Source: a virus
IMG/VR virus record: IMGVR_UViG_3300045988_128825
Span: 1-45,316 of that record
Reading direction: 5' to 3' (one strand)
DNA: 45,316 nt
A model generated the notes under the pieces. That model was not told the origin of the DNA. It made no database searches and was given only the letters and a program-made list of their open reading frames with translations. Both the position numbers and the translations under genes were made by a program. Positions within the stretch are counted from its first letter, which is position 1. The number at the start of each line of letters is the position of its first letter. Below are positions 4,716 to 40,300 of the stretch, piece by piece.

Positions 4716-4723
4716 AATAGTAT
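4673..4723 (+). promoter_or_regulatory. Late-promoter-like bipartite motif, copy A (AATTAAAAATGTATCCGACAAA-N12-ATGAGTTAAAATAGTAT)
   Basis: Both boxes identical to 30879..30929 with an unrelated spacer; TAAAAT/TAGTAT -10-like element; overlaps the last codons and stop of the RinA-like gene. Confidence 0.55.
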
Positions 4724-19800: not shown

Positions 19801-22800
19801 ATGGCAAGGTCTGTATTGTACGATGTAGCAGCGGCAGGAAAGTTTATACCAGACGATTTAAAGACTAAAGCATTACAAGGAGCTAATGCAAATAATATAT
19901 CGCTTCAAATGGCAGCTCGTAATCCTGATTATTATTTACCTAAAAACTTTGATTATGACTGGAATAAATATGAGAAGATCGCACCAAGAACAGCAGAGGC
20001 GTTAAAAGACCCTGTGCTTATGAGCGTTGCCGGTACTAAAGCTGCAGAATTTTGGGGCGAGCAAGAAAATAACTGGAAAAGTATTACAGCGCTGAAAAAT
20101 GGTTTTAAGAATGTTGCTCGCAGCGGTTATGGTGCAGTTGCACTGCTTGCTGATTTGGGTGCAGATAAAAAAGATGTTGACTTGACAACGGAATCCAAGG
20201 TTTTTAGCGCAGATACAATAGGACGGCTTTTGTATGCTGTCGGTGGAGATAAGCTAAAAACTATTGGTACTGAAGCTAAACGCATTGGTGGCAGTGAAAT
20301 ATTTAAGCCGGAAGAAGTAAAGGCTGAAACTGCGGCAGGCCAGTTTTATTATGACTTACTGCAGAATGCACCACAATTAGCGGCACAGGTCGGCGTTGCA
20401 ATCAGTACAGGCGGCTGGAGTGCTGCTGCTTTTATGGGCAGTCAGATTGCAGGCGGCCAATATTTAGATCTTACTGAAGCTGGGGTATCTAATGACAGAG
20501 CCAGAGCTGCGGCGTCTTTAAACGCTGTTGCACAGTCTGCTCTTGAAAAAGTGGGCTTGGGCAAAGTCATGGGAGCAGGAGCAAGAGCCGCTAAAATCGC
20601 AACTATGGGCGGTAAGGCCAAAGAAGTTTTTAAAACTGCATTGACAGAAGGCATTACTGAATGGATTCAGGAATACCCGGATGCTGCTGCTGAAATATGG
20701 GCTAAAAATGCGAATCTTTCCACTCAAGAGCAAATACTTAAATTTTATCAGGAATTTGGAGAAATCACTAAAAGAGGCGCTTATTCCGGTGCTATTGGTG
20801 CGGTGTTTGGTGGTCTTGGAGGTTCGGTAAGCATTGCCGTAGACCGTAATGCAAATAGAGTTATGCAGGAGCAGGCTGTACGTACTGCGGAAACGATGAA
20901 AAACAGTAAGGACGTAGATATTACCGCCAGCAAACTAGTACTGAACCAAACGACAGAAGAAAAGGCTTATGTAGATGCTGAAACCCTTTTTACATATGCG
21001 CAGGCAAATCCTAATCTGGATGTAAAAGATACCTTTGGTATAGAGGTTTCTGAACTGCAGGCTGCTGCTGTTCGTGGTGAGGATATTGAAATGCCAATGG
21101 GTACGTATTGTGCGGCAGAGGCTCAAAATCCTGGCTTTTTCCAGGCTGTAAGCAATAACGTAGCTTTTGAACAGGGCGGTTATACAGAAGAACGCGCCAG
21201 AAATAAAAAAGCTCTCCAAAGCGCTTATAAAAAAGCGTTGGAGAACGACGAGGAATTTAGAACTGCAGTTGATACTTTTAGAAATGAATTGACCGAAGCG
21301 GGACTAAATCAAAAGGAAACAGGTGACGTCCTGGCTATTTTAACCAGCCGTGCTATGATTGCTAATCCTGATGACCCTATGCAGTATTTCAGAGATAACC
21401 CTTTAAGCTTCAAACGAGTTGTCAGCACTCCTAATGGGCGATATATGCAAACTAAAAGCGCTAACGAAAAATTGCTTGAGGATGAAAATAACTTTTCTGG
21501 TATCGTAGATGAATATAAAGCCGGTACGTTGAACGAAACGAAACCATATAAGGTAATAACTACGCCGCTTGCGATAAACCTTGCAGGCGGTAAAATTTTG
21601 CCTGTAACTATTGACGGTGGCAGGATCAACCATATTTTTGAAAAACACTTTGATGGTATGACACCGGACCTTTTGAAACAATTACCAAGGGCATTTGCTG
21701 ATCCTATAATGGTATTAGATTCTTATTCAGGGCGGAAGGTGGTAGTGCTGGATTTGAAAGATGCGCAAGGCTCTACTATCATTGTTCCACTTGATCTTGA
21801 TGTAAGCCGTGACCGTTATAAAGTAAATGCCATTAACAGCGCTTATGGTAAAGGCGGTGCTAATGGCACAAATTATAATTGGTTTATTGAGCATAATATC
21901 AAAAAAGGCAGAGTTGCATATGTAAATAAAGAAAAAACCGCCAAGTGGTTACAGTCTGATAGCAGCGATTCCGCTATCAAAGGCACCGACCTTGACGGTT
22001 TTCTTAATAATAGTATACCAGATGAAAATGCACTCCGCAAGAGACGAGAAGAAATGCAGGGATACTACCAGACAGCTTTTCACGGAAGCCCACATAAATT
22101 TAATAAGTTTAATTTAGAAAATATCGGAACAGGTGAAGGTGCTCAGTCTCACGGCTGGGGACTGTATTTTGCTAAAGATCGTAGTGTAGCAGGGAATAGA
22201 TATAGATTTATAGGAAAAGCAGCTGATAATTCTGTAACTTTTGGTGACAGGCCGATTATGGAATTATATGATTCCTTAGAACGTCAGGCCGGTACTATTT
22301 CAGATAATGCTGAAGCCCAGAAATATTATGATAAGATGGCACTGATTGAAGATATAGAATATAAGGGATCGACTGTTGATATTAACGAAGAAAATTTTTC
22401 TCCTGCAGCGGTAAAATGGTTTAAGAGAGAAATTAAACCACGGTTAAGAATAAAAGGATCGCTTATCGAAGTAGACATCCCAGAGAATAATGTTTTGCTG
22501 GATGAACAAAAAACACTTGCCAAACAGGATGAGAATGTAAAAAATCTGCTTAAAAATTTTTATAAATCATTAAGAAGCGAACAAAGAAGTGCAGTAAAAG
22601 AACAATTAAAACAGTCAGTGCGAAAAAATGAAACCAGCGAGGAATATTCAGAAAAAATTAATAAAACGAGAAAGATAGATTCAACTTTATCAAGATTAAA
22701 TAAAATTCTTAAGCCGTTGCCAGATACAGCACCAAAATTTATACAAAGAGCAAAAGAGTTGTCAATGTCGGAATTAAAAGGAGAAGGATATGATATTGGA

Positions 22801-25800
22801 CGACTGAAAACAGATCAACAATATTATGATAGTATCGTAAATTCTCTCCAAGCAGAACAAAAAGAATTACAAGCGGCTATTGCGGCAGAAGAACAGACTA
22901 TTCAAGAGGCCTATAATAAAGAGTTAGAAACTATAGAGAAATCTAGAGGAGCAGGTCTTTTTAACAGTAATGCTATTACAGGAGATAATTTTTATGCAGC
23001 ATTATCAGAAGTTTTGGGTGGAGCGAAAGAAGCATCGATTGCTTTAAATAAGGCAGGAATTAAAGGCATTACTTATTACGGTGATCTTGATGGGCGTGCT
23101 TTTGTAGTATTTGATGATAAATCCATAAAGATTCTTAACAAGTATAATCAAAAAGTTAATAACGATAAGAAAGGTTCTATCACCTGGGACGAAGAAGGTA
23201 AAGCAATTATCAGCCTGTTTGAAGGTGCTGATATGAGCACTGTTATTCATGAAGCTGTCGGACATTACTTTATTGAGAATCTCATACGTGAAGGGGCACT
23301 CCCTAATGCTACAGAGCAGATGAAAAAAGACCGTCAGACTATGCTTGATTATGCAGGTGTAACTAAAGACTGGGATAGCTTGTCGCAGGAAGAAAAAACA
23401 GCAGCACATGAACGCTGGGCAGAGGCCGCAGAAACTTATATGCTTGAAGGCAAGGCGCCCTCAAAAGAGCTGCAGCCGGTATTTAACAGGTTCAAAAAAT
23501 GGCTGCTTGCTGTTTATAACGCCGTTTTTTCGGATAAGCGCAGTAAAAATGCTGTTCCAATCAACGATGAAGTAAGGCAGGTTTTTGACAGGATGCTGGC
23601 AAGTGAAGAGCAAATATCAGAAATGGAGCGTATCGACGGTTATTTTTCTGCTTTGCCAGATGTTGTATTAGATGCACTTTCAGAACCACGTAAGCAAATG
23701 CTGCGTAATTTTGCTGCTAAAGCTCACGATAAGGCAGTACAGTTATTAACAAAAGAAAGCCTTGTTAATTTCAATCAGGAGCGTAAAGACCGAATTCAAA
23801 AATATCGTGAAGATGTAGAGCCGCAGGTTAAAGAAGCGATTGCAAAACAGCCGTTATATATGGCTTCGGAGCAGATACTTGATATTGCATCTGATTTAAA
23901 AACGGCTAAGGGCATAGCTAACAGATATTTAGAAGGTAATTTTGATGAAAGTAAAATGGCAACTTTTGATATGATAGCTGAAGCTAATGGTTTTACTTCC
24001 GGTGACGAGCTGGCTAAAACGATTATGTCAGAACCATCTTTTAATGGTGCGGTTAACAGACATATTGATGAAATGGTGCAAGACGCCTTCCCTGATATTT
24101 ACAAAGAGAGAGGGCTTGCTGAAGAAGCTGCACGTGATGCTATGTATAATGACGAGAGCGGTCTTTTGATAAATACAGAAGCACAGCTTATTGAGGATAA
24201 AGCACAAGGTTTGTTGAAGGGTCAGCGTGATGCTGAAACTCTTAGAAAACTTGCTGTTGCACGCAAGCAAACAGCTAAAATCCAGGCACAGATGGACCTG
24301 CAGAATAGAGTAAAATTAAAGGAGGCGTTGAATACCCAAAAGTATATTACTGCAGAAAGAAACGCTGCGGCTAAAGCTGCTGTGGCATTGGAAAATGATG
24401 ATTATTCTGCTGCGGTCCGATATAAAAACGTCCAGGCGTTTAATCATGCTTGTGTAGTTGAAAGCGTAAGACTGCGTAATCAGTATGCTAAGTGGCAGAA
24501 TTATTTCAGGAAGCAGGCTAAAGCTAAAAGGGAAACGTGGGGTAATGAAAGAAACTTTATTCAAGCAGCAGCAATTATGGAAAGGTTCGGTTATAAGCGT
24601 AAAGATTATTCTGATTTTGAAAAGACAGAAACTTTATCAGACTATCTGAATGATATGGATGATCTTTATGACAATGTTGCAGTTGCTGATTGGATAATGG
24701 ATGAGAATGTTAGCATTACAAATCCTCGTGAACGTATGACGGCAAGCCAGCTTGAAGATATAGTAAATGCGCTTAAAAATATCAAAGCGATCGCTAAACA
24801 GGAAATGAGTATCAATGCTTTACAGAAAGGTGCTACCTATGCTGAATTTAAAGCTGAAGCACAGGAAACACTTAATAAGCTGAAAACTATCTGGAAACCG
24901 CAGGTTGGCGTTGCACAGCAGCCTACAGTAATGGAGAAGCTAAAAGCATCTTTACGCAGTACGGACAATCTTTTTGAAATGATGGATGACTGGCAGTATG
25001 GATTTTTCAGCAAACATTTTGGCGCAGCTATTCGAGAAGCGGCCGATAATGAAACAAGAAAAATTTTAGAATATGAGGAAAAAACAGCGCAGGCTTACAG
25101 GGAATGGCTGCCGGATAAAGCTGCAGAAAAGGCGGCCGATTATCAGGAAAAATATGACGAGCTAGGGACTTCTGTAGATAAGCACGTTTTATTAAAAATG
25201 CTTATGAATTTAGGCAACGAGAGCAGTGCCAGAGTATTGTGCAGCACTAGACCGGTAGGCTTTGAAAGTTCTGCCTTGTGGGTAGATGGCGATATCGTAC
25301 AGACTAAAATCAATTTACTTGACTTCTTAGGGCGTAATCTTACTGAAGCGGATATAAAATATGCACAGGCTAAGATAGACATTGCAGAGATGTACTGGTC
25401 TGAAATGGAAGCTCTTGAAACTCGTTGGACAGGGTTTAGTCCTAAGAAAGTAGAAGCGTCGCCTGTAGAGCTGACGTTATCAGACGGCAAGACTGTTGTT
25501 ATGCGTGGCGGTTATTTCCCGCTGATGCGTGACGGTGATACTGGTTCTAAACACGCTGGGCAAGAAGTTATTTCTGATACTGACCCCAGACAAGGACGCA
25601 ATATTAGAACAATGAGCACTAGACGAGGCCATTTAAAAGAACGTGTTAAGGCTAAATATCCTGTTAATCTAAAACGTGGAGCAGAGTTTAATGTTGCTAT
25701 GGATGCGATACATGATCTGTGTTTCCGTGAGGTTATGGGCGATTTCCGCAAAATTATGAACGATCAGGAAATGTATACTCTGATTAAAGAAAAATTAGGC

Positions 25801-26949
25801 CTGGCCGATTTCTCCGCCTTTAAAGAATATCTTGAACGTGCGGCAAATCCTCAAGGTACTAACAGCGGCTCTGTTGGTGAAAGCTGGATGGGCAGTGTTG
25901 CTAACTGGCTTAGGGCTCGTACTGTAAATGCTGCCATTATGCTTAACCTTAAAACTGCCGTTCAGAACTTGGGTAATCCCTTGCTTTATGGTAATGCTGT
26001 AGATGGTTTTGGATATAGTGATGTCGTTGCCGCTGTGAGCAATTACAGTATGAATATGCAACTTGCAGAGGGCTATAAATCGGCTAAGGAATTTGTTTAC
26101 AGTAAATCCCCTTGGATGAAAGAAAGGTCTGTGCTTCCTGATATTTCCCTGCGGGATATGAAAGAAATGGAAAGCCTGAATCCTATAGAAAAGAAAGCTG
26201 TTGAATTTGGCACAAGATTGCTGGTCGCTACTGATAATCTTTCTGCTATTCCGGTATGGATGCAGGCGTATGGTAAAAAAATAAGGGCTGGTGCAGGCGA
26301 AGCAGAAGCTGTGGACTTTGCCAATACGGTTATTAGACGTACACTTGGCAGCAGCAGAGTTACGGAGGTTGCACCGCTTTTGCGTGGCGGACCTATGCTT
26401 AAACTGTTTACTACCTTCCAAGGCTTCTTCAATACACAATATAATCAGTGGGCCAGAGAGTACAATATCTTCTTAAAAGAAAAAGACATAATGCGTCTTA
26501 CTTCGTTTGTGGGAGCTAAGTTTGTAATGTTTGTTTTTATAAACTTGATGTTGTCGCCCGAAGATCCATTTGAAGAAGATAAGGATGAATATCAAAAGAT
26601 ATCAAAAGAACTGCTTACTTACCCTATGAGTTTAGCCGGACCGGTTGGACAGGTTGGTAATGCTATCTGGAGCAGGGCTTTAGGCATGCAGACTTACGGG
26701 TATAGAATGACTGCAGTACAAGGCACGATAGAGCAAATGGAACGTGCTGCCGGTAAGGTACAAAAGGTTTACCAGGGCAAAGCAGATTATGACGAATTGG
26801 TTGAGCCTACTGCAACATTTGTTGGAACAGCATTAGGCGTGCCTGCACAGTTAAACAAATTATTCTTTAACGGATATGATATCTTGTTCAACGGTATGGA
26901 GCCGGAAGTTGGCGACATCTTTAGACGTAGGCCGAAAAAGGAACGGTAA
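19801..26949 (+). CDS. Giant (2382 aa) internal virion/ejection protein (gp16-like position) with several effector-like modules
   Basis: Single uninterrupted ORF; INHIFEKH module (~aa 611), FHGSPHKF...GWGLYFA module (~aa 761-790), HEAVGH (aa 1150-1155), hydrophobic segment FVGAKFVMFVFINLMLS near C-terminus. Confidence 0.75.
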   Translation: MARSVLYDVAAAGKFIPDDLKTKALQGANANNISLQMAARNPDYYLPKNFDYDWNKYEKIAPRTAEALKDPVLMSVAGTKAAEFWGEQENNWKSITALKNGFKNVARSGYGAVALLADLGADKKDVDLTTESKVFSADTIGRLLYAVGGDKLKTIGTEAKRIGGSEIFKPEEVKAETAAGQFYYDLLQNAPQLAAQVGVAISTGGWSAAAFMGSQIAGGQYLDLTEAGVSNDRARAAASLNAVAQSALEKVGLGKVMGAGARAAKIATMGGKAKEVFKTALTEGITEWIQEYPDAAAEIWAKNANLSTQEQILKFYQEFGEITKRGAYSGAIGAVFGGLGGSVSIAVDRNANRVMQEQAVRTAETMKNSKDVDITASKLVLNQTTEEKAYVDAETLFTYAQANPNLDVKDTFGIEVSELQAAAVRGEDIEMPMGTYCAAEAQNPGFFQAVSNNVAFEQGGYTEERARNKKALQSAYKKALENDEEFRTAVDTFRNELTEAGLNQKETGDVLAILTSRAMIANPDDPMQYFRDNPLSFKRVVSTPNGRYMQTKSANEKLLEDENNFSGIVDEYKAGTLNETKPYKVITTPLAINLAGGKILPVTIDGGRINHIFEKHFDGMTPDLLKQLPRAFADPIMVLDSYSGRKVVVLDLKDAQGSTIIVPLDLDVSRDRYKVNAINSAYGKGGANGTNYNWFIEHNIKKGRVAYVNKEKTAKWLQSDSSDSAIKGTDLDGFLNNSIPDENALRKRREEMQGYYQTAFHGSPHKFNKFNLENIGTGEGAQSHGWGLYFAKDRSVAGNRYRFIGKAADNSVTFGDRPIMELYDSLERQAGTISDNAEAQKYYDKMALIEDIEYKGSTVDINEENFSPAAVKWFKREIKPRLRIKGSLIEVDIPENNVLLDEQKTLAKQDENVKNLLKNFYKSLRSEQRSAVKEQLKQSVRKNETSEEYSEKINKTRKIDSTLSRLNKILKPLPDTAPKFIQRAKELSMSELKGEGYDIGRLKTDQQYYDSIVNSLQAEQKELQAAIAAEEQTIQEAYNKELETIEKSRGAGLFNSNAITGDNFYAALSEVLGGAKEASIALNKAGIKGITYYGDLDGRAFVVFDDKSIKILNKYNQKVNNDKKGSITWDEEGKAIISLFEGADMSTVIHEAVGHYFIENLIREGALPNATEQMKKDRQTMLDYAGVTKDWDSLSQEEKTAAHERWAEAAETYMLEGKAPSKELQPVFNRFKKWLLAVYNAVFSDKRSKNAVPINDEVRQVFDRMLASEEQISEMERIDGYFSALPDVVLDALSEPRKQMLRNFAAKAHDKAVQLLTKESLVNFNQERKDRIQKYREDVEPQVKEAIAKQPLYMASEQILDIASDLKTAKGIANRYLEGNFDESKMATFDMIAEANGFTSGDELAKTIMSEPSFNGAVNRHIDEMVQDAFPDIYKERGLAEEAARDAMYNDESGLLINTEAQLIEDKAQGLLKGQRDAETLRKLAVARKQTAKIQAQMDLQNRVKLKEALNTQKYITAERNAAAKAAVALENDDYSAAVRYKNVQAFNHACVVESVRLRNQYAKWQNYFRKQAKAKRETWGNERNFIQAAAIMERFGYKRKDYSDFEKTETLSDYLNDMDDLYDNVAVADWIMDENVSITNPRERMTASQLEDIVNALKNIKAIAKQEMSINALQKGATYAEFKAEAQETLNKLKTIWKPQVGVAQQPTVMEKLKASLRSTDNLFEMMDDWQYGFFSKHFGAAIREAADNETRKILEYEEKTAQAYREWLPDKAAEKAADYQEKYDELGTSVDKHVLLKMLMNLGNESSARVLCSTRPVGFESSALWVDGDIVQTKINLLDFLGRNLTEADIKYAQAKIDIAEMYWSEMEALETRWTGFSPKKVEASPVELTLSDGKTVVMRGGYFPLMRDGDTGSKHAGQEVISDTDPRQGRNIRTMSTRRGHLKERVKAKYPVNLKRGAEFNVAMDAIHDLCFREVMGDFRKIMNDQEMYTLIKEKLGLADFSAFKEYLERAANPQGTNSGSVGESWMGSVANWLRARTVNAAIMLNLKTAVQNLGNPLLYGNAVDGFGYSDVVAAVSNYSMNMQLAEGYKSAKEFVYSKSPWMKERSVLPDISLRDMKEMESLNPIEKKAVEFGTRLLVATDNLSAIPVWMQAYGKKIRAGAGEAEAVDFANTVIRRTLGSSRVTEVAPLLRGGPMLKLFTTFQGFFNTQYNQWAREYNIFLKEKDIMRLTSFVGAKFVMFVFINLMLSPEDPFEEDKDEYQKISKELLTYPMSLAGPVGQVGNAIWSRALGMQTYGYRMTAVQGTIEQMERAAGKVQKVYQGKADYDELVEPTATFVGTALGVPAQLNKLFFNGYDILFNGMEPEVGDIFRRRPKKER

Positions 26950-26952
26950 AAG

Positions 26953-26990
26953 AAAACCCCCTCGAATTTGAGGGGGTTTATATTTTCTCA
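26953..26990. terminator. Bidirectional intrinsic terminator between convergent genes
   Basis: AAACCCCCTC-GAATTT-GAGGGGGTTT flanked by A-run and T-run. Confidence 0.85.
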
Positions 26991-27272
26991 GAATCCATTG
27001 TTGTATCTATAAATTGCGTCATTTGCTTCACGGATAGCCGCAGCTTGTGCTTCTTGAATACGCTGGATATCATTGTTACAGTTTTCTACATATTTCTTTG
27101 CTTCTTCGACATAAAGTTCAACTTCATATTTGCTCGGATTGTAAGGTAAATATGAATTGAATTCTGGATACATTGACAAACTTAAATTAGATCCACCAAA
27201 AACATATGCAAACGCTATACTTGAACACCATAAAATAGAAATTATTGAAATTATTAGAATCCTTTTAAACAT
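26988..27272 (-). CDS. Secreted 94-aa protein (signal peptide + helical domain), function unknown
   Basis: MFKRILIISIISILWCSSIAFA/YV...; AAAGGAGAAG SD; A+T-rich island. Confidence 0.6.
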   Translation of the reverse strand: MFKRILIISIISILWCSSIAFAYVFGGSNLSLSMYPEFNSYLPYNPSKYEVELYVEEAKKYVENCNNDIQRIQEAQAAAIREANDAIYRYNNGF

Positions 27273-27302
27273 TAATTCTTCTCCTTTAATATTTGATTTG
27301 TT

Positions 27303-27713
27303 TTATATGCCTATATATTTTCCGTTGCCGTCACCAATTAAATTTAATAGGTGAAAAAATAATTCTTCACCTATAGATCCTGGAATAATAGGTTTTATTT
27401 TATAAAGTGGTTTATAAGAATCTTCTATTTGACCATTTTTATAGGCAATAATGTACAAATTTACTAAGGAAAAATCTTTTGTAAAAAAAGTAGTTTGTAT
27501 TAAAATCTGTTTATTTTCAGAAGGTTCTACTCTTGCGACCCAGGCGGTTGCTTTTGTATCGTCAAATGTGATTGTTCCTCTATCTATAAAATAACCAAAT
27601 TGGTTATCTGAATCTACCCAGCTCCAGCGAGCTGGATCTAAGTTATTGGCAGCACATAAATTTGTGATTAAAGAAAATACAAGAATTAAAAATAATAAAA
27701 TTGTTTTTTTCAT
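27303..27713 (-). CDS. Secreted 136-aa protein, function unknown
   Basis: Start at internal ATG 27713 (MKKTILLFLILVFSLITNLCA/ANN...) after AAGAAGGG SD; the track start 27833 would overlap the upstream gene. Confidence 0.6.
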   Translation of the reverse strand: MKKTILLFLILVFSLITNLCAANNLDPARWSWVDSDNQFGYFIDRGTITFDDTKATAWVARVEPSENKQILIQTTFFTKDFSLVNLYIIAYKNGQIEDSYKPLYKIKPIIPGSIGEELFFHLLNLIGDGNGKYIGI

Positions 27714-27754
27714 AATAACCCTTCTTTTATTATTTCGCACAATTAAGTTATTGG

Positions 27755-28324
27755 CTATATTCCTTTTACGCTGCCGGTAAAACCTATAGCAGAAGTTTGA
27801 CCTTTTGAATTTATCCCAAAAAATAATGCCCAAATCGGATTATATTTATTATGATAGGCATACCAATAGGATACAATTCCGTTATATTCTGCTTTAGTGT
27901 TTTTAATAATGGTTCCCGGAGTTCCGTATTTAGAAACAATTAAATTTTCTGAAGAACCAATTGATATTCCTCTTATAGTTGATACGTTGGGCTTAGTACA
28001 AATAATTTTATATATTTTACCATAGTCATCTTTGTTTATAGTTGGCTTATCATTATAATTTAAAGTTATAATACCATTTTCAAATAATATAGTTGCTTCA
28101 CTACTTCTGGCAACACCGTCACTATAAATATAATTTTCTGTCAGGATTTCGCCTAAAATGCGTGAAGCATCGTTAATAGTGGTATATTTTTCTGCTTGTA
28201 ACGGCCCGCAATTGATCAAGAATAAGTCATCTACATTAGTGCTACCAGCAGCAATAACTTTGGCAGATAAATTGAAAATAGATAAAAAGATAAAAGCAAA
28301 AATAACAAGTGTAATTTTTTTCAT
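27755..28324 (-). CDS. Secreted 189-aa protein, function unknown
   Basis: MKKITLVIFAFIFLSIFNLSAKVIAAG...; own extended -10 (TGATATAAT, plus coords 28349-28357) downstream of a terminator. Confidence 0.65.
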   Translation of the reverse strand: MKKITLVIFAFIFLSIFNLSAKVIAAGSTNVDDLFLINCGPLQAEKYTTINDASRILGEILTENYIYSDGVARSSEATILFENGIITLNYNDKPTINKDDYGKIYKIICTKPNVSTIRGISIGSSENLIVSKYGTPGTIIKNTKAEYNGIVSYWYAYHNKYNPIWALFFGINSKGQTSAIGFTGSVKGI

Positions 28325-28365: not shown

Positions 28366-28396
28366 AACGAAAATAAAACAGCCCGTAGGCTGTTTT
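28366..28396 (-). terminator. Intrinsic terminator after the XRE-family gene
   Basis: Minus strand: AAAACAGCC-TAC-GGGCTGTTTT followed by ATTTTCG. Confidence 0.65.
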
Positions 28397-28400
28397 AAAG

Positions 28401-29105
28401 TTAAGGTTTATTAAGGTATTCTTCTATGAATTTATTCAAGTCATTATCTTGATTGTCTACTATTATATATAAATCATCAATAATAGAATGTTTTTTTGAA
28501 TCTGTAATGAATTTAAACTGACCTGAAATAAAAGCAAAAAGTCCGATTACGACTTCACTGTCTCTGAAAAATTTGAAAAGCAAATAACCATTCTGTGAAA
28601 TAGGATCAATTGCGGTGAAATATGATTCCTGTTCTAAAAAATCATAATCATTAAATTGAGGGAAAAAGCTCAAAATAAAATCATTTATGATTGGATGTGT
28701 TGAATTAAAATGTTTGTTTTTATCCAAAGAAACCGGATTTCCATTGTCATCCAAAACCATTATTTCTTCTTTTAAGTCTTCTGGTATCTTTTTTATGAAT
28801 GGAACACTTTCAACTTTAGGGAAGATATCCCAGTGAACCAAAGAATTCTGTGTATCGTATATTAGTTTTTCTACTAATTTATAGACTTTAGAGTCAGACT
28901 TTGATTGAGTATCTAAAAGCAGATAATCTAAAGTTACATTAAATAATTCTACAAGTTTTTTTAATAATTCTGGATCGCTAGGAATACTTTTTCCCGTTTC
29001 GTAGTAACTAACAATTCTCGAGGATACTCCTAACTTTATGGCTAAATCTTTTTGGGTCATACCCTTGGCTTCACGGAGTTTCTTTAGATTTTCACTGAAA
29101 GACAT
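28401..29105 (-). CDS. XRE-family HTH regulator with ~165-aa C-terminal domain of unknown function (Mnt-analog position)
   Basis: MSFSENLKKLREAKGMTQKDLAIKLGVSSRIVSYYETGKSIP; ATG 29105 after AGGTGGTG (track start 29117 is GTG inside the SD). Confidence 0.8.
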   Translation of the reverse strand: MSFSENLKKLREAKGMTQKDLAIKLGVSSRIVSYYETGKSIPSDPELLKKLVELFNVTLDYLLLDTQSKSDSKVYKLVEKLIYDTQNSLVHWDIFPKVESVPFIKKIPEDLKEEIMVLDDNGNPVSLDKNKHFNSTHPIINDFILSFFPQFNDYDFLEQESYFTAIDPISQNGYLLFKFFRDSEVVIGLFAFISGQFKFITDSKKHSIIDDLYIIVDNQDNDLNKFIEEYLNKP

Positions 29106-29125
29106 ATTAATCACCACCTAAAGCA

Positions 29126-29154
29126 ATTATAACAATAAGAACCATAAGACACAA
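29126..29154 (-). promoter_or_regulatory. Promoter of the XRE-family gene (TTGTGT-17-TGtTATAAT on minus strand)
   Basis: Reverse complement of 29126-29154. Confidence 0.5.
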
Positions 29155-29184
29155 TATTTTTCTCAAAAAACATCAAGACGTATA

Positions 29185-29213
29185 TTGACATAACTAACGT
29201 ATTACGTTAAAAT
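29185..29213 (+). promoter_or_regulatory. Promoter TTGACA-17-TAAAAT with palindromic operator AACGTA-T-TACGTT in the spacer
   Basis: -35 29185-29190, -10 29208-29213, palindrome 29196-29208; divergent from the XRE gene promoter. Confidence 0.65.
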
Positions 29214-29245
29214 TAAAAGCAACAAACGAGAAAGGAGTATTAAAG

Positions 29246-29416
29246 ATGAGGCCAACAATTGATTTTAAAGGTGATCTTGGAGCAGTACTTAGATACCACT
29301 GTACAAAAGTGGGCATTAGTATTGCTGGCTATGTCAAGGGGTTAGTGTATGATGATTTGTTAAAGAAGTATCCTAACTTACTTAATGAAACAAAAAAAGA
29401 AACTGTCACACGCTAA
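29246..29416 (+). CDS. 56-aa ribbon-helix-helix (Arc/CopG-like) protein (putative)
   Basis: MRPTIDFKGDLGAVLRYHCTKVGISIAGYVKGLVYDDLLKKY: short N-terminal strand + two helices; AAAGGAG SD; sits directly upstream of the antirepressor. Confidence 0.5.
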   Translation: MRPTIDFKGDLGAVLRYHCTKVGISIAGYVKGLVYDDLLKKYPNLLNETKKETVTR

Positions 29417-29539
29417 CCGACCAAAGTTACCGTGACAGTTTCAAAGCAGAAAGGCGTACGGAAAACGTACTATTTCTTAAAATAGTATAGCATTTTTACG
29501 TATGCCTTTCAAGATATTTATTTTGGGAGGCATATTTTT

Positions 29540-30274
29540 ATGAAAAACGAACTGAAGATTTTTGAAAACGAAGCTTTTGGTAAAGTTAGAGTAATTGAAA
29601 AAAATAATGAACCGTGGTTTGTAGGAAAGGACGTAGCGGAGGTACTTGGATATCGGAATACTCGTGATGCTTTAGCTAAACACATAAAAGTAATGCATAA
29701 AGCTGACGTCGCAATTTACGACGGCAGCCAAAAACGTAGCCATACAATTATTGATGAAGCGGGGTTTTATTCATTAGTCCTTCGTTCAAAATTGCCAGCT
29801 GCTGAAGCTTTTCAGGAGTGGGTAGTTGCTGAGGTAATTCCTTCTATTCGCAAAACTGGGTCGTATTCTGTAAATCAGGATATAAAAGCTAGAGAAGTAG
29901 AAGCTCGCTTAAATAACAGTCGTGCAAGAGTTGCATCGACATTCCTTAAAGTTGCTCAAATGACTGATCTGCTAGAATACAAACATATCTGCCAGCAGAA
30001 AGCAGCAGAGGTTTTGAGCGGCGTGCCATTACTACCGATGCAATCTATAAACGAAAATACTTTATCTGCTGATGAGGTCGGCAGAGAACTTGGAATCAGT
30101 GGTAATATGGTTGGCAGGATTGCGAATCAGCATAATTTAAAAACTGCTGAATATGGTAAATATTTTTATGACAAATCACGTCATTGTCAAAAACAGGTAG
30201 AAACATTTAGATATTATAGGAAGGTAATTCCAGTAATACAAAGTATTATTGATAATAAAAAAGTAGGAGCGTAA
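29540..30274 (+). CDS. ant: Bro-N domain antirepressor
   Basis: IFENEAFGKVRVIEKNNEPWFVGKDVAEVLGY...IDEAGFYSLVLRSKLPAAEAFQEWVVAEVIPSIRKTG is a typical Bro-N domain; C-terminal half antirepressor-like. Confidence 0.85.
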   Translation: MKNELKIFENEAFGKVRVIEKNNEPWFVGKDVAEVLGYRNTRDALAKHIKVMHKADVAIYDGSQKRSHTIIDEAGFYSLVLRSKLPAAEAFQEWVVAEVIPSIRKTGSYSVNQDIKAREVEARLNNSRARVASTFLKVAQMTDLLEYKHICQQKAAEVLSGVPLLPMQSINENTLSADEVGRELGISGNMVGRIANQHNLKTAEYGKYFYDKSRHCQKQVETFRYYRKVIPVIQSIIDNKKVGA

Positions 30275-30391
30275 TATAAAACAAGAAACACCCGCCGCAC
30301 CGTGGAAAGTATAGCGAGTGTTTCAACCACCAGCCGAAGCTGATAACAATAGTATAGCAGTTTTCGGCTGGTATATCAAGGAGGATATACC

Positions 30392-30574
30392 ATGAACGGA
30401 AACAGGTCGTCGTGTCCTGACGAAGAAAAAAGGGCATTGGAGAAATTTGTCGAAGTTGTAAGAAGCACATCTCAAGAAGAATTTGCAAGAAAATATATAA
30501 ATGAAGATAGTGATAAAATGACAGAGACAAAAAGCGAGATCTCCACCGCTGATAGAAAAGAAGTAAAAGAATAA
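30392..30574 (+). CDS. 60-aa acidic hypothetical protein
   Basis: AAGGAGGA SD; MNGNRSSCPDEEKRALEKFVEVV... Confidence 0.45.
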   Translation: MNGNRSSCPDEEKRALEKFVEVVRSTSQEEFARKYINEDSDKMTETKSEISTADRKEVKE

Positions 30575-30593
30575 ATCAAAGGCGGTGTAAATA

Positions 30594-30794
30594 ATGAATA
30601 AAGTGCGGAAATCATTTAGGGAGCTGTTGAACAAATTGTCTCCGGCTCAGCTTGAAGAAGTAGCAGCCATAGCATATGAGATAAAGAAAGAACGTGAATC
30701 GTCGTCGAAGGTAGTTCGGTTTATGGATAAGTCCAGCCGGCGTTGTTATGATCAGGGGTATAAGCTTGGTCTGATGTTAGGAAATAAATTTTAA
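30594..30794 (+). CDS. 66-aa hypothetical protein
   Basis: MNKVRKSFRELLNKLSPAQLEEVAAIAYEIKKERE... Confidence 0.45.
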   Translation: MNKVRKSFRELLNKLSPAQLEEVAAIAYEIKKERESSSKVVRFMDKSSRRCYDQGYKLGLMLGNKF

Positions 30795-30839
30795 AAAGTT
30801 TCCGACAAAATGCCCTTTAACAAGAGTTAAAATAGTAAT
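30791..30839 (+). promoter_or_regulatory. Late-promoter-like bipartite motif, copy B (TCCGACAAA-N14-GAGTTAAAATAGTA)
   Basis: TTAAAAAGTTTCCGACAAA 30791-30809 and GAGTTAAAATAGTAAT 30824-30839 at the same spacing as copies A and C. Confidence 0.5.
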
Positions 30840-30878
30840 GTAAGGTTATTGGATATGAGAGCAGAGGCGATGTAAAAA

Positions 30879-30929
30879 AATTAAAAATGTATCCGACAAA
30901 ACCATTATAAAAATGAGTTAAAATAGTAT
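30879..30929 (+). promoter_or_regulatory. Late-promoter-like bipartite motif, copy C
   Basis: 22-nt and 17-nt boxes identical to copy A (4673..4723), spacer unrelated. Confidence 0.55.
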
Positions 30930-30956
30930 CATAAAGTTAGTTAGAACTTAATAGAA

Positions 30957-39540: not shown

Positions 39541-39927
39541 CTAAACTGCATTTTTATTTTTTGATGTTTCTGCAGTTAGCAGTCCATCAATAAAGCCAAT
39601 AACAATATATCTATCATTATCTTCAATTTTGCGGAACTTATCTATAAGAATTTTTTCCTGATCAGATAATACATAGTTATCTTCCTGATCGATATAAATA
39701 GGAGTGGGGCGTTCCATTTCTACATCGAATCCCATAAGCCAGCCTTCGTTTACATTTAATGCAACGGCTATCTTGTAGAGATTATTCTGTTTTGCCTTAA
39801 ATTTGCCTTTTAAATATTGGCTAATAAGAGGTTGGCTTAATCCAGTTTTTTCGGACAGTTCAACTGGCTTTATGCCTGTGACATCTAACGCTTCTTGTAG
39901 CCTAGTGGCAAAATCAGTTTTTTTCAT
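39541..39927 (-). CDS. CI-like XRE-family repressor (no S24 peptidase domain)
   Basis: MKKTDFATRLQEALDVTGIKPVELSEKTGLSQPLISQYLKGKFKAKQNNLYKIAVALNVNEGWLMG; 128 aa from ATG 39927; divergent from the Cro-like gene. Confidence 0.8.
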   Translation of the reverse strand: MKKTDFATRLQEALDVTGIKPVELSEKTGLSQPLISQYLKGKFKAKQNNLYKIAVALNVNEGWLMGFDVEMERPTPIYIDQEDNYVLSDQEKILIDKFRKIEDNDRYIVIGFIDGLLTAETSKNKNAV

Positions 39928-40007
39928 TGCAATCATCCTTCCTTCAACTATAATAGCACTGATATTAAGAAAAGTAAAGGATAAAATAAGAAAACTAAAA
40001 TTTAGTA

Positions 40008-40036
40008 TTGACTTAAGAAAGCTTAAGTAGTATAAT
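40008..40036 (+). promoter_or_regulatory. Early rightward promoter TTGACT-17-TATAAT with operator-like ACTTAAG-N4-CTTAAGT in the spacer
   Basis: -35 40008-40013, -10 40031-40036; TTAAGAAA repeated at 39966, 40013 and (TTAGAAA) 40041. Confidence 0.7.
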
Positions 40037-40069
40037 CGTCTTAGAAACAGAAAAGAAAGGAGGAACGTT

Positions 40070-40300
40070 ATGAATCCGCAATTTGATTATTCAAAGCTTA
40101 ATGAAAAAATAATTAGAACATTTCTTACAAGAACTGCATTTTGTGAGGCTTTTGGGGTATCGACATCGAATCTGTCGTTGAAAATGAATAACAAACATTA
40201 CTTTACTCAACCACAAATTGCTAAGGCTTGTTCATTATTGAAAATTCCACAATCTCAAGTTGGTAAATATTTTTTTACTACAAAAATTAAGAAATCTTAA
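40070..40300 (+). CDS. Cro-like HTH protein (DUF739-type)
   Basis: FDYSKLNEKIIRTFLTRTAFCEAFGVSTSNLSLKMNNKHYFTQPQIAKACSLLKIPQSQVGKYFF matches the DUF739 Cro/CI pattern of Firmicute phages. Confidence 0.75.
   Translation: MNPQFDYSKLNEKIIRTFLTRTAFCEAFGVSTSNLSLKMNNKHYFTQPQIAKACSLLKIPQSQVGKYFFTTKIKKS

What the first reader, a model, noticed from the sequence alone, without database searches (positions are those of the whole stretch)
28401..30274. Second immunity region with P22 immI-like logic and position (regulator | Arc-like | antirepressor)
An XRE-family regulator (234 aa, with an unknown 165-aa C-terminal domain) is transcribed leftward. Back-to-back with it, a TTGACA-17-TAAAAT promoter carries a perfect palindrome, AACGTA-T-TACGTT, in its spacer. 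That promoter drives a 56-aa protein with a ribbon-helix-helix-like layout and then a Bro-N antirepressor. In P22, mnt | arc-ant has the same organisation and also lies between the ejection-protein genes and the tail gene. Here Mnt appears to be replaced by an unrelated HTH protein. The primary repressor (39541..39927) lacks an S24 autocleavage domain, so prophage induction may run through this antirepressor.
Basis: partly seen in the sequence, partly recalled or inferred. Interest (0 to 1): 0.65.

Follow-up and report, generated by a model that had tools for sequence, protein, structure and literature searches.

The report
Antirepressor control cassette with antisense RNA
A temperate phage of gut bacteria carries, between its injection-protein and tail-fibre genes, a self-contained switch that keeps an antirepressor-type gene silent through a repressor, a small DNA-binding protein and a predicted antisense RNA, rebuilding the classic P22 "immunity I" design from unrelated parts.

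Summary
These are the 234-aa XRE regulator, the TTGACA-17-TAAAAT promoter with a 13-bp palindrome in its spacer, the 56-aa ORF, the Bro-N gene, and a primary repressor without an S24 domain.

The 56-aa protein is probably ribbon-helix-helix. The evidence is its predicted fold and two weak profile matches.

The layout matches the annotated P22 immI region gene for gene. No part is homologous to mnt, arc, sar or ant.

The 123-nt RHH-ant spacer is a conserved structured leader. It carries a convergent extended -10 promoter and a minus-strand terminator that overlaps the RHH stop codon. Together these predict an antisense RNA of about 86 nt.

The helices covary across about nine lineages. G·U asymmetry assigns P2 and P3 to the mRNA and the terminator to the antisense strand. 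Blocking the antisense target in silico moves the leader from an open to a sequestered ribosome-binding site. A paralogous unit follows ant.

The cassette is mobile. It occurs in podo-, myo- and sipho-type prophages, with the regulator and the Ant N-domain swapped.

Not tested: that Ant inactivates the primary repressor, and that induction runs through this module.

The parts
26954..26979 (.). Bidirectional terminator-like hairpin closing the late-operon segment. Left border of the moron.
   Evidence: 10-11 pairs with T-runs on both strands.
26988..28324 (-). Three leftward cargo ORFs (94, 136 and 189 aa). By eye they have signal-peptide-like N-termini. They occupy the slot that sieA and orf59a occupy in P22.
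   Evidence: no family hits. Relatives carry other genes in this slot (223 aa; DUF805 plus 126 aa; 159 aa).
28374..28397 (-). Intrinsic terminator after the regulator gene, which makes that gene monocistronic.
   Evidence: 10 pairs followed by TTTTCGTTTA.
28401..29105 (-). XRE-family regulator, 234 aa: an HTH (residues 7-62) plus a C-terminal alpha/beta domain of about 165 aa and unknown family. Inferred repressor of P(ant), the Mnt analogue.
   Evidence: Full-length homologues of 42-67% identity always sit next to an Ant-type cassette.
29126..29154 (-). Candidate regulator promoter: TTGTGT, 17 nt, TGT-TATAAT (extended -10).
   Evidence: Read. The TGTTATAAT/TGTTATATT element is conserved in diverged loci. 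It falls below the scan threshold because its -35 is weak. Inferred.
29177..29184 (.). Upstream ACGTAT motif abutting the -35 of P(ant). Candidate regulator site O1.
   Evidence: It is kept, 19 bp from the spacer copy, in the RHH-less lineages L014 and L016, whose regulators share the same recognition helix.
29185..29213 (+). P(ant): TTGACA, 17 nt, TAAAAT.
   Evidence: Conserved in every lineage as TTGACA/TTGACG, 17 nt, TA(T/A)AAT.
29196..29208 (.). 13-bp palindrome AACGTA-T-TACGTT in the promoter spacer, at the same place as Oarc in P22. It contains the second ACGTAT motif. Candidate operator for the RHH protein, the regulator or both.
29246..29416 (+). 56-aa RHH-like protein, the Arc analogue. 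Its last codons (KKET..) are co-encoded with the antisense terminator.
29392..29477 (-). Predicted antisense RNA 1, about 86 nt: a 5' stem-loop plus a terminator stem (29399-29409 with 29432-29442) and a U-run.
   Evidence: z -3.7. The 5' and 3' ends are inferred, not mapped.
29484..29512 (-). Promoter of antisense RNA 1: TTGAAA, 17 nt, TGC-TATACT (extended -10).
   Evidence: TTGAAA-N14-TGn-TA(T/A)ACT is conserved in lineages A-E although the flanks diverge. G has TTGAAA with TGA-TATCAT. F and H keep only the extended -10 (TGC-TAAAAT, TGT-TAGAAT) with a weak -35.
29449..29535 (+). Bistable ant leader. Element 1 (29449-29465) pairs with element 2 (29494-29510) to form helix P2. Alternatively element 2 pairs with the RBS region (29520-29535, GGGAGG at 29525-29530) to form hairpin P3 (29500-29535), which is followed by U5 and the ATG.
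29540..30274 (+). Bro-N protein of the antirepressor (Ant) type, 244 aa.
   Evidence: Its C-terminal domain is shared with the pRha-type protein of L118. No similarity to P22 Ant.
30278..30344 (-). Predicted antisense RNA 2, about 67 nt: a UUCG-loop hairpin plus a terminator (30285-30295 with 30314-30324). Paralogue of RNA 1.
   Evidence: model R1, 27.3 bits, E 1.3e-4, window 30278-30394; z -4.9.
30351..30379 (-). Promoter of antisense RNA 2: TTGATA, 17 nt, TGC-TATACT.
30392..30794 (+). Two small ORFs (60 and 66 aa) downstream of leader 2. Relatives have 69 plus 66 aa, or one 70-79-aa ORF overlapping the ant stop. Function unknown.
30783..30939 (+). Two copies of a late-promoter-like repeat that restart late transcription into the tail-fibre genes. 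Right border of the moron.
   Evidence: A third copy lies at about 4670-4722, ahead of the terminase genes.
39541..39936 (-). Primary CI-like repressor: HTH only, no S24 domain. The presumed target of Ant.

Best explanation
This is a self-contained 'ant moron', a functional analogue of P22 immI built from non-homologous parts.

Shown by sequence and comparison:
- A leftward XRE regulator and a rightward near-consensus promoter, P(ant), sit back to back.
- P(ant) drives a 56-aa RHH-like protein, a 123-nt structured leader, a Bro-N Ant-type protein, a second structured leader and one or two small ORFs.
- Each leader has a convergent extended -10 promoter and a minus-strand terminator.
- Each leader has three mutually exclusive pairing elements.

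Inferred steps:
1. In the lysogen the regulator binds the ACGTAT motifs that flank the -35 and lie in the spacer, and represses P(ant).
2. On infection or derepression the RHH protein is made first. It binds the spacer palindrome and shuts P(ant) off, as Arc does.
3. An antisense RNA of about 86 nt (29477 to 29392) pairs with the ant mRNA leader, including element 1.
4. Without the antisense RNA, element 1 pairs with element 2 (helix P2) and leaves the ribosome-binding site open.
5. With the antisense RNA bound, element 2 is free to pair with the RBS region. This forms a 16-bp hairpin followed by U5, so ant is not translated and may be terminated. The logic is that of pT181/pIP501 antisense attenuation, not the direct RBS pairing used by P22 sar.
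6. If Ant escapes all three layers it inactivates the S24-less primary repressor and tips the phage to lytic growth.

The regulator's C-terminal domain would be the place where a signal enters.
For: Anatomy.

P22 comparison.

RHH fold:
- The AlphaFold model has pLDDT 79, an extended N-terminus and helices at 9-22 and 26-41.
- The Foldseek PDB list is dominated by CopG, Arc, CopA, MazE, AmrZ and PutA. TM-scores are 0.6-0.75 and rmsd 1.6-2.7 A over about 41 residues.
- The best PDB profile hit is the RHH protein SvtR, E 0.19.
- The hhalign register against Mnt is correct, E 0.004.

Cassette conservation:
- The small protein is found in 795 collection blocks.
- The same layout recurs in P2-like and lambda-like prophages and in distant members. 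Those have 39-54% identical small proteins and AntA or Bro-N plus KilAC partners.

Leader:
- A covariance model was built only from the window-type sequence. It finds the leader between the small ORF and the ant gene in every lineage, at 17-90 bits.
- It gives no hit at E 0.1 or better in 0.5 Mb of unrelated XRE neighbourhoods. It gives none better than E 2.7 in P22.
- 97.8% of cells pair. 18 of 31 pairs show changes on both sides. 0 of 500 shuffles reach the observed values. Slid controls pair at 34-47%.
- RNAalifold predicts P1 and P2 on its own.
- Own-arm against cross-lineage pairing is 0.99 v 0.63 for P2 and 0.97 v 0.61 for P3.

Strand assignment:
- P2 and P3 carry 6 and 11 G·U pairs on the + strand and no C·A mismatches.
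- P1 has C·A on the + strand, which is G·U on the - strand, in six cases against one the other way.
- Only the minus strand has a U-run after P1.

Promoter and folds:
- The antisense promoter is conserved.
- The antisense RNAs fold at z -3.7 and -4.9.

Switch:
- Blocking the antisense target drops RBS accessibility from 0.69 to 0.00, 0.41 to 0.02, 0.52 to 0.00 and 0.46 to 0.17 in four lineages.
- The two states are within about 2 kcal/mol of each other.

Repressor role: the promoter is near consensus and the candidate sites overlap its core. The ACGTAT motifs persist where the RHH gene is absent but the regulator's recognition helix is the same. They change where the helix changes.
Against: - No transcript data exist. 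The antisense RNA, its ends and its promoter activity are all predicted.
- In lineage E the full-length minimum-energy fold already sequesters the RBS without the antisense RNA. In lineage H the unconstrained fold also forms P3 rather than P2. The switch would therefore have to be kinetic (co-transcriptional).
- In lineage I the antisense promoter is weak.
- The alignment used for pair counts was fitted to the model. It holds only about five independent lineages.
- The RHH assignment has no statistically significant match. Pfam gives nothing at E up to 1 and Foldseek E-values are above 0.6.
- The palindrome is lost in the RHH-less lineages and mutated in L011. Which protein binds what is therefore unresolved.
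- 'Antirepressor' rests on family annotation only. The window protein has no detectable KilAC domain.
- AriS-type relatives do the opposite of induction (PMC9043618).
- No Cheo-type SOS box lies in either control region. No input signal is identified.
Confidence: 0.6

Rival explanations
1. The architecture is as described, but the Bro-N protein is not an antirepressor of this phage's CI-like repressor. It may be an AriS-like modulator of the host SOS response or of induction, a DNA-binding regulator of other genes, or a host-toxic Kil-type factor. The tight control would then serve that role. The module would be an 'Xre-Bro' mobile regulatory pair rather than a second immunity region.
For: - PMC9043618 (read): proteins with AntA, Bro-N or pRha N-domains and a KilAC C-domain are annotated as antirepressors, yet they inhibit SOS and block lysis. 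The same N-domain swapping occurs in this cassette family.
- PMC2701414 (read) lists Xre-Bro as a mobile two-gene module of unclear function and notes that Ant-domain proteins can be toxic.
- There is no similarity to P22 Ant.
Against: - The layout parallels immI feature for feature.
- The primary repressor lacks any self-cleavage domain. No ImmA-type ORF lies beside it (not an exhaustive scan). Some antirepressor route is therefore needed.
- PHROG Ant families match at E 3e-50.
Confidence: 0.3
2. The regulator is a signal-sensing activator, or a ligand-released switch. This would resemble the transcription-factor plus small-protein modules that trigger SOS-independent induction in Vibrio and linear plasmid-phages. 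Its C-terminal domain would sense a cue and turn P(ant) on.
For: - It is a two-domain protein with a conserved C-terminal alpha/beta domain of unknown family.
- It is divergently transcribed from an antirepressor operon, as in the modules of PMC10432266 (listed).
- No SOS box is present.
Against: - P(ant) matches consensus at 11 of 12 positions with a 17-nt spacer, so it should not need an activator.
- The conserved candidate sites overlap the -35 and the spacer, which are repressor positions.
- In distant cassette members the regulator is replaced by other short HTH proteins without this domain.
Confidence: 0.15
3. The leader is a purely cis-acting mRNA element, for example a thermosensor, a protein-binding attenuator or a translation-coupled attenuator. 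No antisense RNA is made. The minus-strand promoter-like and terminator-like features are by-products of the plus-strand helices.
For: - P2 and P3 are clearly plus-strand structures.
- The TTGAAA -35 is the complement of the TTTCAA that also forms part of P3.
- Lineage I has a poor antisense promoter.
Against: - The TGnTA(T/A)ACT element lies in the P2 loop, where no plus-strand pairing constrains it. It is nevertheless conserved across lineages A-E. G, F and H keep extended -10 variants at the same place.
- P1 is followed by a U-run only on the minus strand.
- P1 tolerates C·A mismatches on the plus strand that are G·U pairs on the minus strand, six cases to one.
- A full-length though sub-threshold Rfam match to ctRNA_pT181 falls on the minus strand at 29384-29488 (29.8 bits, E 0.27).
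Confidence: 0.15
4. The promoter, palindrome and ORF order are a chance arrangement around an ordinary XRE gene and a Bro-N gene.
For: 6-N1-6 palindromes occur at the chance rate in the window. AT-rich DNA gives many promoter-like hits: 26 found against 18.5 expected.
Against: The whole arrangement is conserved in hundreds of contigs and in several unrelated phage backbones. Protein and leader sequences have diverged there, with compensatory changes in the helices.
Confidence: 0.03

Closest known systems
Salmonella phage P22 immI region (mnt | arc - sar - ant), the 'ant moron' of P22-like phages
   Same: - It sits between the injection-protein genes and the tail gene, inside the late operon, with leftward prophage-expressed cargo beside it.
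- A leftward maintenance repressor sits back to back with a strong ant promoter, and an operator lies in the promoter spacer.
- A small first-gene repressor with an RHH fold precedes the ant gene.
- A convergent antisense RNA lies in the intercistronic region, and its terminator overlaps the stop codon of the small repressor gene.
- Then comes the ant gene (PMC2629481).
   Different: - No part is homologous. The regulator is XRE-HTH plus an unknown domain, not RHH Mnt.
- Ant is a Bro-N protein (BLASTP E 15).
- Rfam's sar model does not match the window.
- The antisense promoter lies upstream of the ant RBS, so the RNA does not cover the RBS. It must act through a refolding of the leader.
- The two divergent promoters are about 30 bp apart rather than overlapping.
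- A second antisense unit follows ant.
- The cassette also occurs at other genome positions.
Antisense-RNA attenuation of rep genes in pT181, pIP501 and pAMbeta1 (Rfam ctRNA_pT181)
   Same: - A short convergent countertranscript with two stem-loops is complementary to the 5' part of an mRNA leader.
- Binding prevents an upstream helix (here P2). A downstream hairpin plus U-run then forms just before the start codon (here P3).
- The two leader states are close in energy.
- How these plasmids work is from my own knowledge of the systems.
   Different: - The Rfam score is 29.8 bits against a gathering score of 56, so it is not a member.
- The target is a phage antirepressor-type gene, not a replication gene.
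- In several lineages the downstream hairpin has no U-run, so it can only occlude the RBS.
Xre-Bro (repressor-antirepressor) two-gene modules, and AriS-type AntA/Bro-N/pRha + KilAC proteins
   Same: - An XRE HTH gene lies next to a Bro-N/Ant-type gene in phage genomes (PMC2701414).
- The N-terminal domain alternates among Bro-N, pRha and AntA in front of a conserved C-terminal part (PMC9043618).
   Different: - Those descriptions, as far as I read them, do not include the RHH gene, the structured leader or the antisense units.
- The window protein lacks a detectable KilAC domain.
- AriS blocks induction rather than promoting it.
Transcription-factor plus small-protein modules for SOS-independent induction (phage VP882 VqmA-Qtip and relatives)
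   Same: A two-domain transcription factor is divergently transcribed from a gene whose product is thought to inactivate a cI-type repressor that cannot self-cleave (PMC10432266, listed).
   Different: There the factor activates its target on sensing a signal. Here the promoter is near consensus and the sites lie in repressor positions. Here there are also extra RHH and antisense layers. No homology was tested or seen.

Membership tests
P22 immI (mnt-arc-sar-ant) | Divergent maintenance repressor homologous to Mnt (RHH) | tested here: not met
   The regulator is Pfam HTH_3. Foldseek matches only HTH repressors.
P22 immI (mnt-arc-sar-ant) | First gene of the ant operon homologous to Arc | tested here: inconclusive
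   hhalign against Arc gives E 0.09 and probability 0.6%. The fold resembles Arc/CopG but the E-values are not significant.
P22 immI (mnt-arc-sar-ant) | Antirepressor homologous to P22 Ant | tested here: not met
   BLASTP E 15. Pfam finds Bro-N only.
P22 immI (mnt-arc-sar-ant) | sar antisense RNA (Rfam RF00262) | tested here: not met
   RF00262 finds P22 sar at 97.8 bits. It is absent from the window matches at E up to 10. An analogous but unrelated antisense unit is predicted instead.
P22 immI (mnt-arc-sar-ant) | Location between the ejection-protein genes and the tail gene, in the late operon | tested here: met
   The same cassette also occurs elsewhere in other phages.
Ribbon-helix-helix (Arc/MetJ/CopG) superfamily | N-terminal strand, helix A, G-x-S/T turn, helix B, recognised by a profile or by fold | tested here: inconclusive
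   - Pfam and PHROGs give no hit.
- The PDB profile search gives SvtR (RHH) at E 0.19.
- The model has helices at 9-22 and 26-41 after an extended N-terminus.
- Foldseek's top 50 are mostly RHH proteins, TM 0.6-0.75, with E above 0.6.
- The dimer could not be modelled.
XRE/Cro-CI HTH regulators | HTH_3 domain above the Pfam cut-off | tested here: met
   52.1 bits against a cut-off of 23. Foldseek: 43% identity to the ImmR DNA-binding domain.
Bro-N / Ant-type phage proteins | Bro-N domain above the Pfam cut-off | tested here: met
   84 bits against a cut-off of 25.6.
Bro-N / Ant-type phage proteins | C-terminal ANT/KilAC domain (PF03374) | tested here: not met
   No PF03374 hit at E up to 1 for the window protein. 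The domain is present in distant cassette members.
Bro-N / Ant-type phage proteins | Binds and inactivates the phage repressor | not testable with these tools
   Needs an interaction assay or an induction assay.
ctRNA / antisense attenuation (pT181 type) | Match to Rfam RF00242 at the gathering score | tested here: not met
   29.8 bits against 56, E 0.27. The match covers the full model length, on the minus strand at 29384-29488.
ctRNA / antisense attenuation (pT181 type) | A convergent countertranscript covers the upstream arm of a helix. That helix competes with a hairpin over the RBS (with or without a U-run). | tested here: met
   by prediction and covariation only. No transcript evidence.
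LexA-controlled antirepressors (186 Tum, Gifsy type) | SOS box at the antirepressor promoter | tested here: not met
   No GAAC-N4-GTTC site (up to 1 mismatch) in 29106-29245 or in 39930-40070. The host, and therefore its LexA motif, is unknown.

The most novel reading that the evidence does not exclude
This is a previously undescribed, highly mobile antirepressor cassette family in phages of low-GC bacteria, probably diderm Bacillota. Its core is an RHH gene, a cis-antisense RNA and bistable leader absent from Rfam, and an Ant-type gene. It independently re-creates P22 immI but works by antisense-driven refolding of the leader, in the pT181 style. The regulator's orphan C-terminal domain acts as a sensor. 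That would give one of the most abundant human-gut prophage groups an SOS-independent induction route.
Probability: 0.3. Interest if true: 0.75.

Novelty: new variant of a known kind. Interest (0 to 1): 0.6.

Why it matters
If the reading is right, the three-layer control of an antirepressor is a recurrent solution, not a P22 peculiarity. The three layers are a maintenance repressor, a fast autorepressor and an antisense RNA. Here they have been rebuilt from unrelated proteins and an unrelated RNA. The whole unit is packaged as a cassette of about 2 kb that moves among podo-, myo- and sipho-type prophages.

The work yields a concrete candidate RNA family with covariation support that is not in Rfam. 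It also yields a testable mechanism linking phage immunity control to plasmid-style antisense attenuation.

The small protein is found in 795 blocks of the public assembly collection, including many human-gut metagenomes. The primary repressor cannot self-cleave. The module is therefore a plausible handle on how a very common gut prophage decides to induce.

Tried and rejected
- **Near relatives among deposited phages.** None by megablast. Only short Bro-N matches by blastn.
- **Genome scan for the regulator family.** It returned only generic HTH matches to residues 1-80 and did not reveal the host. Those 80 loci were reused as a negative control for the RNA model.
- **Host.** It stays unknown. 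One NCBI record names Bacteroides uniformis, which conflicts with the strong Shine-Dalgarno sites and sigma-70-type promoters. A T7-like portal, an autotransporter gene beside a related prophage and an SLH protein gene beside another hint at Negativicutes. This is speculation.
- **C-terminal domain of the regulator.** Pfam gives only TaqI_C at E 0.02-0.04. The best PDB profile hit has E 0.15. Foldseek against PDB and BFVD matches the HTH only. No assignment.
- **DNA pattern scan of viral contigs for the terminator loop.** It added only one new lineage.
- **MAFFT alignment of the leaders.** It put the P2 arms out of register. It was replaced by a model-based alignment.
- **Column-wise counting of P3.** Abandoned because the unstructured 3' part is not in register between lineages. 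P3 was assessed per lineage instead.
- **Palindrome enrichment.** Rejected as evidence on its own.
- **Cheo-type SOS box.** None at either control region.
- **ImmA-type protease next to the primary repressor.** No ORF of suitable size lies between the integrase and repressor genes. The whole window was not scanned exhaustively.

Full report
**1. Observation**

All the listed features are present.

- The regulator ORF is 28401..29105 (-), 234 aa from the ATG. Pfam HTH_3 covers residues 7-62 at E 6.7e-14.
- Residues 66-234 match nothing significant in Pfam, in a PDB profile search or in Foldseek against PDB and BFVD.
- That C-terminal region is nevertheless conserved. Full-length homologues of 42-67% identity share invariant residues across it.
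- TTGACA-17-TAAAAT at 29185-29213 scores 11 of 12. It is the best site in the region. It is one of five such sites in the whole window.
- The palindrome AACGTA-T-TACGTT (29196-29208) fills the 3' part of the spacer and overlaps the -10 by one base. It is unique in the window.
- Such palindromes occur at the chance rate overall, 12 observed against 13.6 expected. The placement is what is informative, not the existence.
- The 56-aa ORF (29246..29416) and the Bro-N ORF (29540..30274, Pfam E 1.2e-23) follow.
- The primary repressor (39541..39936) has an HTH only.

**2. Context**

The window is a temperate podovirus-like genome. In order it holds:

- RusA and Rad52-like early genes;
- small and large terminase, a T7-type portal and the major capsid protein;
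- tail proteins, a 758-aa protein with a lysozyme-like segment and a 2382-aa MuF_C polyvalent protein;
- the module;
- tail fibres, integrase, repressor and a Cro-like protein.

The module is bracketed on the left by a bidirectional terminator at 26954-26979. On the right it is bracketed by two copies of a repeat, TTAAAAATGTATCCGACAAA-N17-GAGTTAAAATAGTA. A third copy precedes the packaging genes. This looks like a late promoter. The module is therefore a moron interrupting the late operon.

**3. The small protein**

Word-indexed and exhaustive searches find a narrow family of 54-59-aa proteins. Identity to the window protein goes down to 39%.

- An AlphaFold model built on their alignment has pLDDT 79. 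It shows an extended N-terminus, then helices at 9-22, 26-41 and 45-54.
- Foldseek finds no significant match, as expected for 56 residues. Its list is nevertheless dominated by RHH proteins: CopG, Arc, CopA, MazE, AmrZ, PutA, NikA and ParD. TM-scores are 0.6-0.75 over about 41 residues.
- The best PDB profile hit is the RHH regulator SvtR, E 0.19.
- hhalign places the family on Mnt in the correct strand-helix-helix register, E 0.004, probability 9%.

I rate RHH as likely, at about 0.8, but not demonstrated.

**4. Comparison with P22**

The annotated P22 record lists, in order:

- injection genes 20 and 16;
- sieA, orf59a and mnt, all leftward;
- Pant and Pmnt, with Oarc inside the Pant spacer;
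- arc;
- sar RNA (-), whose terminator overlaps the arc stop and whose promoter lies inside the 5' end of ant;
- ant, a terminator and the tailspike gene.

PMC2629481 calls this the variable 'ant moron'. The window has the same order and orientation of functional slots.

Homology is absent throughout:

- Bro-N protein against P22 Ant gives E 15.
- The regulator is an HTH protein, not RHH.
- Rfam's sar model detects P22 sar at 97.8 bits. It gives nothing in the window at E up to 10.

**5.

The 123-nt spacer between the RHH and ant genes carries three sets of features.

*Minus-strand promoter.* TTGAAA-17-TATACT preceded by TG lies at 29512..29484.

*Minus-strand terminator.* Downstream on the same strand there is a stem of 11 bp (29399-29409 with 29432-29442) followed by a U7 run. 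The stem's plus-strand arm and the A-run encode the conserved C-terminal KKET of the RHH family.

*Plus-strand helices.* A 17-bp helix P2 pairs 29449-29465 with 29494-29510, and its loop holds the antisense -10. A 16-bp hairpin P3 (29500-29535) pairs the 3' arm of P2 with the GGGAGG ribosome-binding site. P3 is followed by U5 and the ATG.

A paralogous unit lies after ant. Its promoter is at 30379..30351 and its terminator at 30285-30324. Its P2' pairs 30330-30338 with 30363-30371. A hairpin at 30370-30391 encloses the next ORF's SD.

An Rfam scan at loose threshold gives a full-length but sub-threshold match to ctRNA_pT181, on the minus strand at 29384-29488 (29.8 bits).

**6. Comparative test**

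The cassette is extremely common. The small protein is found in 795 collection blocks. The cassette occurs in several backbones:

- the podovirus, with varying leftward cargo;
- P2-like tail clusters between gpD and gpU/PAAR (L011, L014-L017);
- a lambda-like head cluster between gpW and the portal (L118);
- other contexts for distant members.

Parts are swapped between copies. The Ant N-domain is Bro-N, pRha or AntA. The regulator belongs to the same family in some lineages and is a different short HTH protein in others. In L014-L017 the RHH gene is replaced by a 7-codon ORF. The leader is always retained.

A covariance model was built only from window-type sequences. Its scores were:

| Lineage | Bits |
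|---|---|
| D | 90 |
| C | 62 |
| B | 56 |
| G | 55 |
| E | 47-54 |
| Unit 2 | 25-34 |
| H | 23 |
| F | 21 |
| I | 17-21 |

Every hit lies on the mRNA strand. Each unit-1 hit lies exactly between the small ORF and the ant gene, and each unit-2 hit lies just after ant. The model finds nothing at E 0.1 or better in 0.5 Mb of unrelated XRE neighbourhoods. It finds nothing better than E 2.7 in P22.

On 14 sequences:

- 97.8% of cells pair.
- 18 of 31 pairs have changes on both sides.
- No shuffle of 500 reaches these values.
- Slid controls pair at 34-47%.
- RNAalifold recovers P1 and P2 independently, with 16 of 23 pairs compensatory.

There are two caveats. The alignment is fitted to the model, and there are only about five independent lineages.

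In a per-lineage analysis, own arms pair at 0.97-0.99. Arms from different lineages pair at 0.61-0.81.

**7. Strand assignment**

P2 and P3 contain 6 and 11 G·U pairs on the plus strand and no C·A mismatches. They are therefore mRNA structures.

P1 shows the opposite pattern. Six cases have C·A on the plus strand, which reads as G·U on the minus strand: lineage B, the L098/L013 variants, unit 2, lineage G (twice) and lineage I. One case goes the other way, in lineage D. Only the minus strand has a U-run after P1.

The TGnTA(T/A)ACT element sits in the P2 loop, where nothing else constrains it. It is nevertheless conserved.

The predicted antisense RNAs fold into a 5' stem-loop plus a terminator, at z -3.7 and -4.9.

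I put the existence of the antisense transcripts at about 0.75.

**8. Mechanism (inferred)**

The antisense RNA covers element 1 but not the RBS. Folding the leader freely, and then with the antisense target blocked, changes the mean unpaired probability of the RBS as follows:

| Lineage | Free | Blocked |
|---|---|---|
| A | 0.69 | 0.00 |
| B | 0.41 | 0.02 |
| C | 0.52 | 0.00 |
| D | 0.46 | 0.17 |
| E | 0.01 | 0.00 |

Lineage E is already closed without the antisense RNA. Lineage H also prefers P3 in its unconstrained fold.

In the window the two states are within about 2 kcal/mol of each other. The minimum-energy fold flips between them depending on where the sequence is cut.

This fits a kinetic, co-transcriptional switch of the pT181/pIP501 kind. 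P2 forms first and keeps ant open, unless the antisense RNA captures element 1. P3 then forms. P3 is followed by a U-run in lineages A, E, I and partly H, so it may terminate as well as occlude. My confidence in this specific mechanism is about 0.5.

**9. Operators**

ACGTA is locally enriched: 6 of the 32 copies in the window lie within 556 nt.

- In lineages A, B and C the regulators share the recognition helix (P/S)RI(I/V)SYYETG. All keep ACGTAT abutting the -35 and AACGTA in the spacer, 19 bp apart.
- The right half of the palindrome is present only where the RHH gene is present.
- L118 has a different recognition helix and a different RHH strand. It has AATACA repeats and a different palindrome, AACTT-AG-AAGTT, at exactly the same spacer position.
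- Lineages G and I have their own repeats and palindromes.

The simplest reading has two parts. The regulator binds the repeated motif and represses a promoter that is too good to need activation. The RHH protein uses the spacer palindrome, as Arc uses Oarc. This rests on few lineages and is unproven.

A candidate regulator promoter (TTGTGT-17-TGT-TATAAT, 29154..29126) lies about 30 bp from P(ant).

**10. What remains open**

Whether the Bro-N protein is a true antirepressor of the 131-aa repressor cannot be tested here.

- The window protein has no KilAC domain.
- AriS-type relatives inhibit SOS and block induction (PMC9043618).
- No Cheo-type SOS box lies at either control region.
- No ImmA-like ORF flanks the repressor.
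- The regulator's C-terminal domain is an orphan.

An induction route through this module is attractive but unsupported. I put it at about 0.35-0.4.

**11. Verdict**

- Observation: confirmed.
- Interpretation: partly supported. The immI-like logic is real and is reinforced by the antisense units. The parts are analogues, not homologues. The position is typical but not obligatory. The induction role is untested.
- Novelty: a new variant of a known kind, with a candidate new antisense/leader RNA family.

Noticed in passing
window ~4670-4722, 30783-30848, 30874-30939: There are three copies of TTAAAAATGTATCCGACAAA-N17-GAGTTAAAATAGTA. One lies ahead of the packaging genes and two lie ahead of the tail-fibre genes. 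This is probably the phage's late promoter, possibly read by a phage-encoded factor. The 160-aa ORF at 4233-4715 just upstream has no family hit.
   Followed up: partly
window 29392-29416, and the RHH-like family (alignment A2): The conserved C-terminal K-K-E-T of the small protein family is encoded by the A-run and the 5' arm of the antisense terminator. The protein end and the RNA terminator therefore constrain each other. The stop codon lies in the hairpin loop.
   Followed up: partly
L014-L017 (P2-like prophages), about 3625-4001 in locus coordinates: In these cassette variants the RHH gene is replaced by a 7-codon ORF. The promoter, the leader and the antisense unit are intact, and the partner is a pRha-type protein. 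L016 also has an orphan unit of '61 aa + Bro-N 270 aa + 92 aa' at 6457-7843, with no regulator and no leader match.
   Followed up: partly
L002, L007, L008, L010, L012 (relatives of the window phage): Some relatives carry a second antirepressor-type gene (Phage_pRha plus ANT/KilAC, 247-254 aa). It lies between the cassette and the tail-fibre genes, where the window has only the duplicated late-promoter repeat. The repeat may be a recombination hot spot.
   Followed up: no
window 39990-40040: The primary immunity region has TTGACT-17-TATAAT (40008-40036), with two CTTAAG motifs in its spacer. A perfect palindrome ACTAAA-A-TTTAGT (39994-40006) lies just upstream. These are probably operators of the 131-aa repressor, and they are unrelated to the ACGTA motifs of the cassette.
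   Followed up: no
window 19801-26949: A 2382-aa protein has a MuF_C domain. Relatives also carry ART-PolyVal and LPD38 domains. It is a polyvalent protein, presumably packaged and injected, and it sits directly upstream of the moron.
   Followed up: no
window 26988-28324: Three leftward ORFs have hydrophobic, signal-like N-termini and no family hits. In relatives they are replaced by a 223-aa protein, by a DUF805 membrane protein plus a 126-aa protein, or by a 159-aa protein. They occupy the slot of P22 sieA, so they are candidates for superinfection exclusion or lysogenic conversion.
   Followed up: no
window 30392-30794: The window has ORFs of 60 and 66 aa separated by 19 nt. Relatives have overlapping ORFs of 69 and 66 aa. 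The window copy of the first ORF may be truncated.
   Followed up: no
cluster of the regulator: One NCBI member of the regulator's 90% cluster is labelled Bacteroides uniformis (WP_117947953.1). The phage's strong Shine-Dalgarno sites and sigma-70 promoters do not fit Bacteroides. The label may reflect a contaminated or mis-binned assembly. The host remains unknown.
   Followed up: partly
L012 3564-3714; L098 and L013 leaders: There are natural single-base variants inside the window-type leader. L012 changes G to T at the one mismatched position of P2, which turns G·A into a U-A pair. L098 and L013 change G to A in the P1 3' arm, which gives C·A on the plus strand but G·U on the minus strand.
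   Followed up: yes
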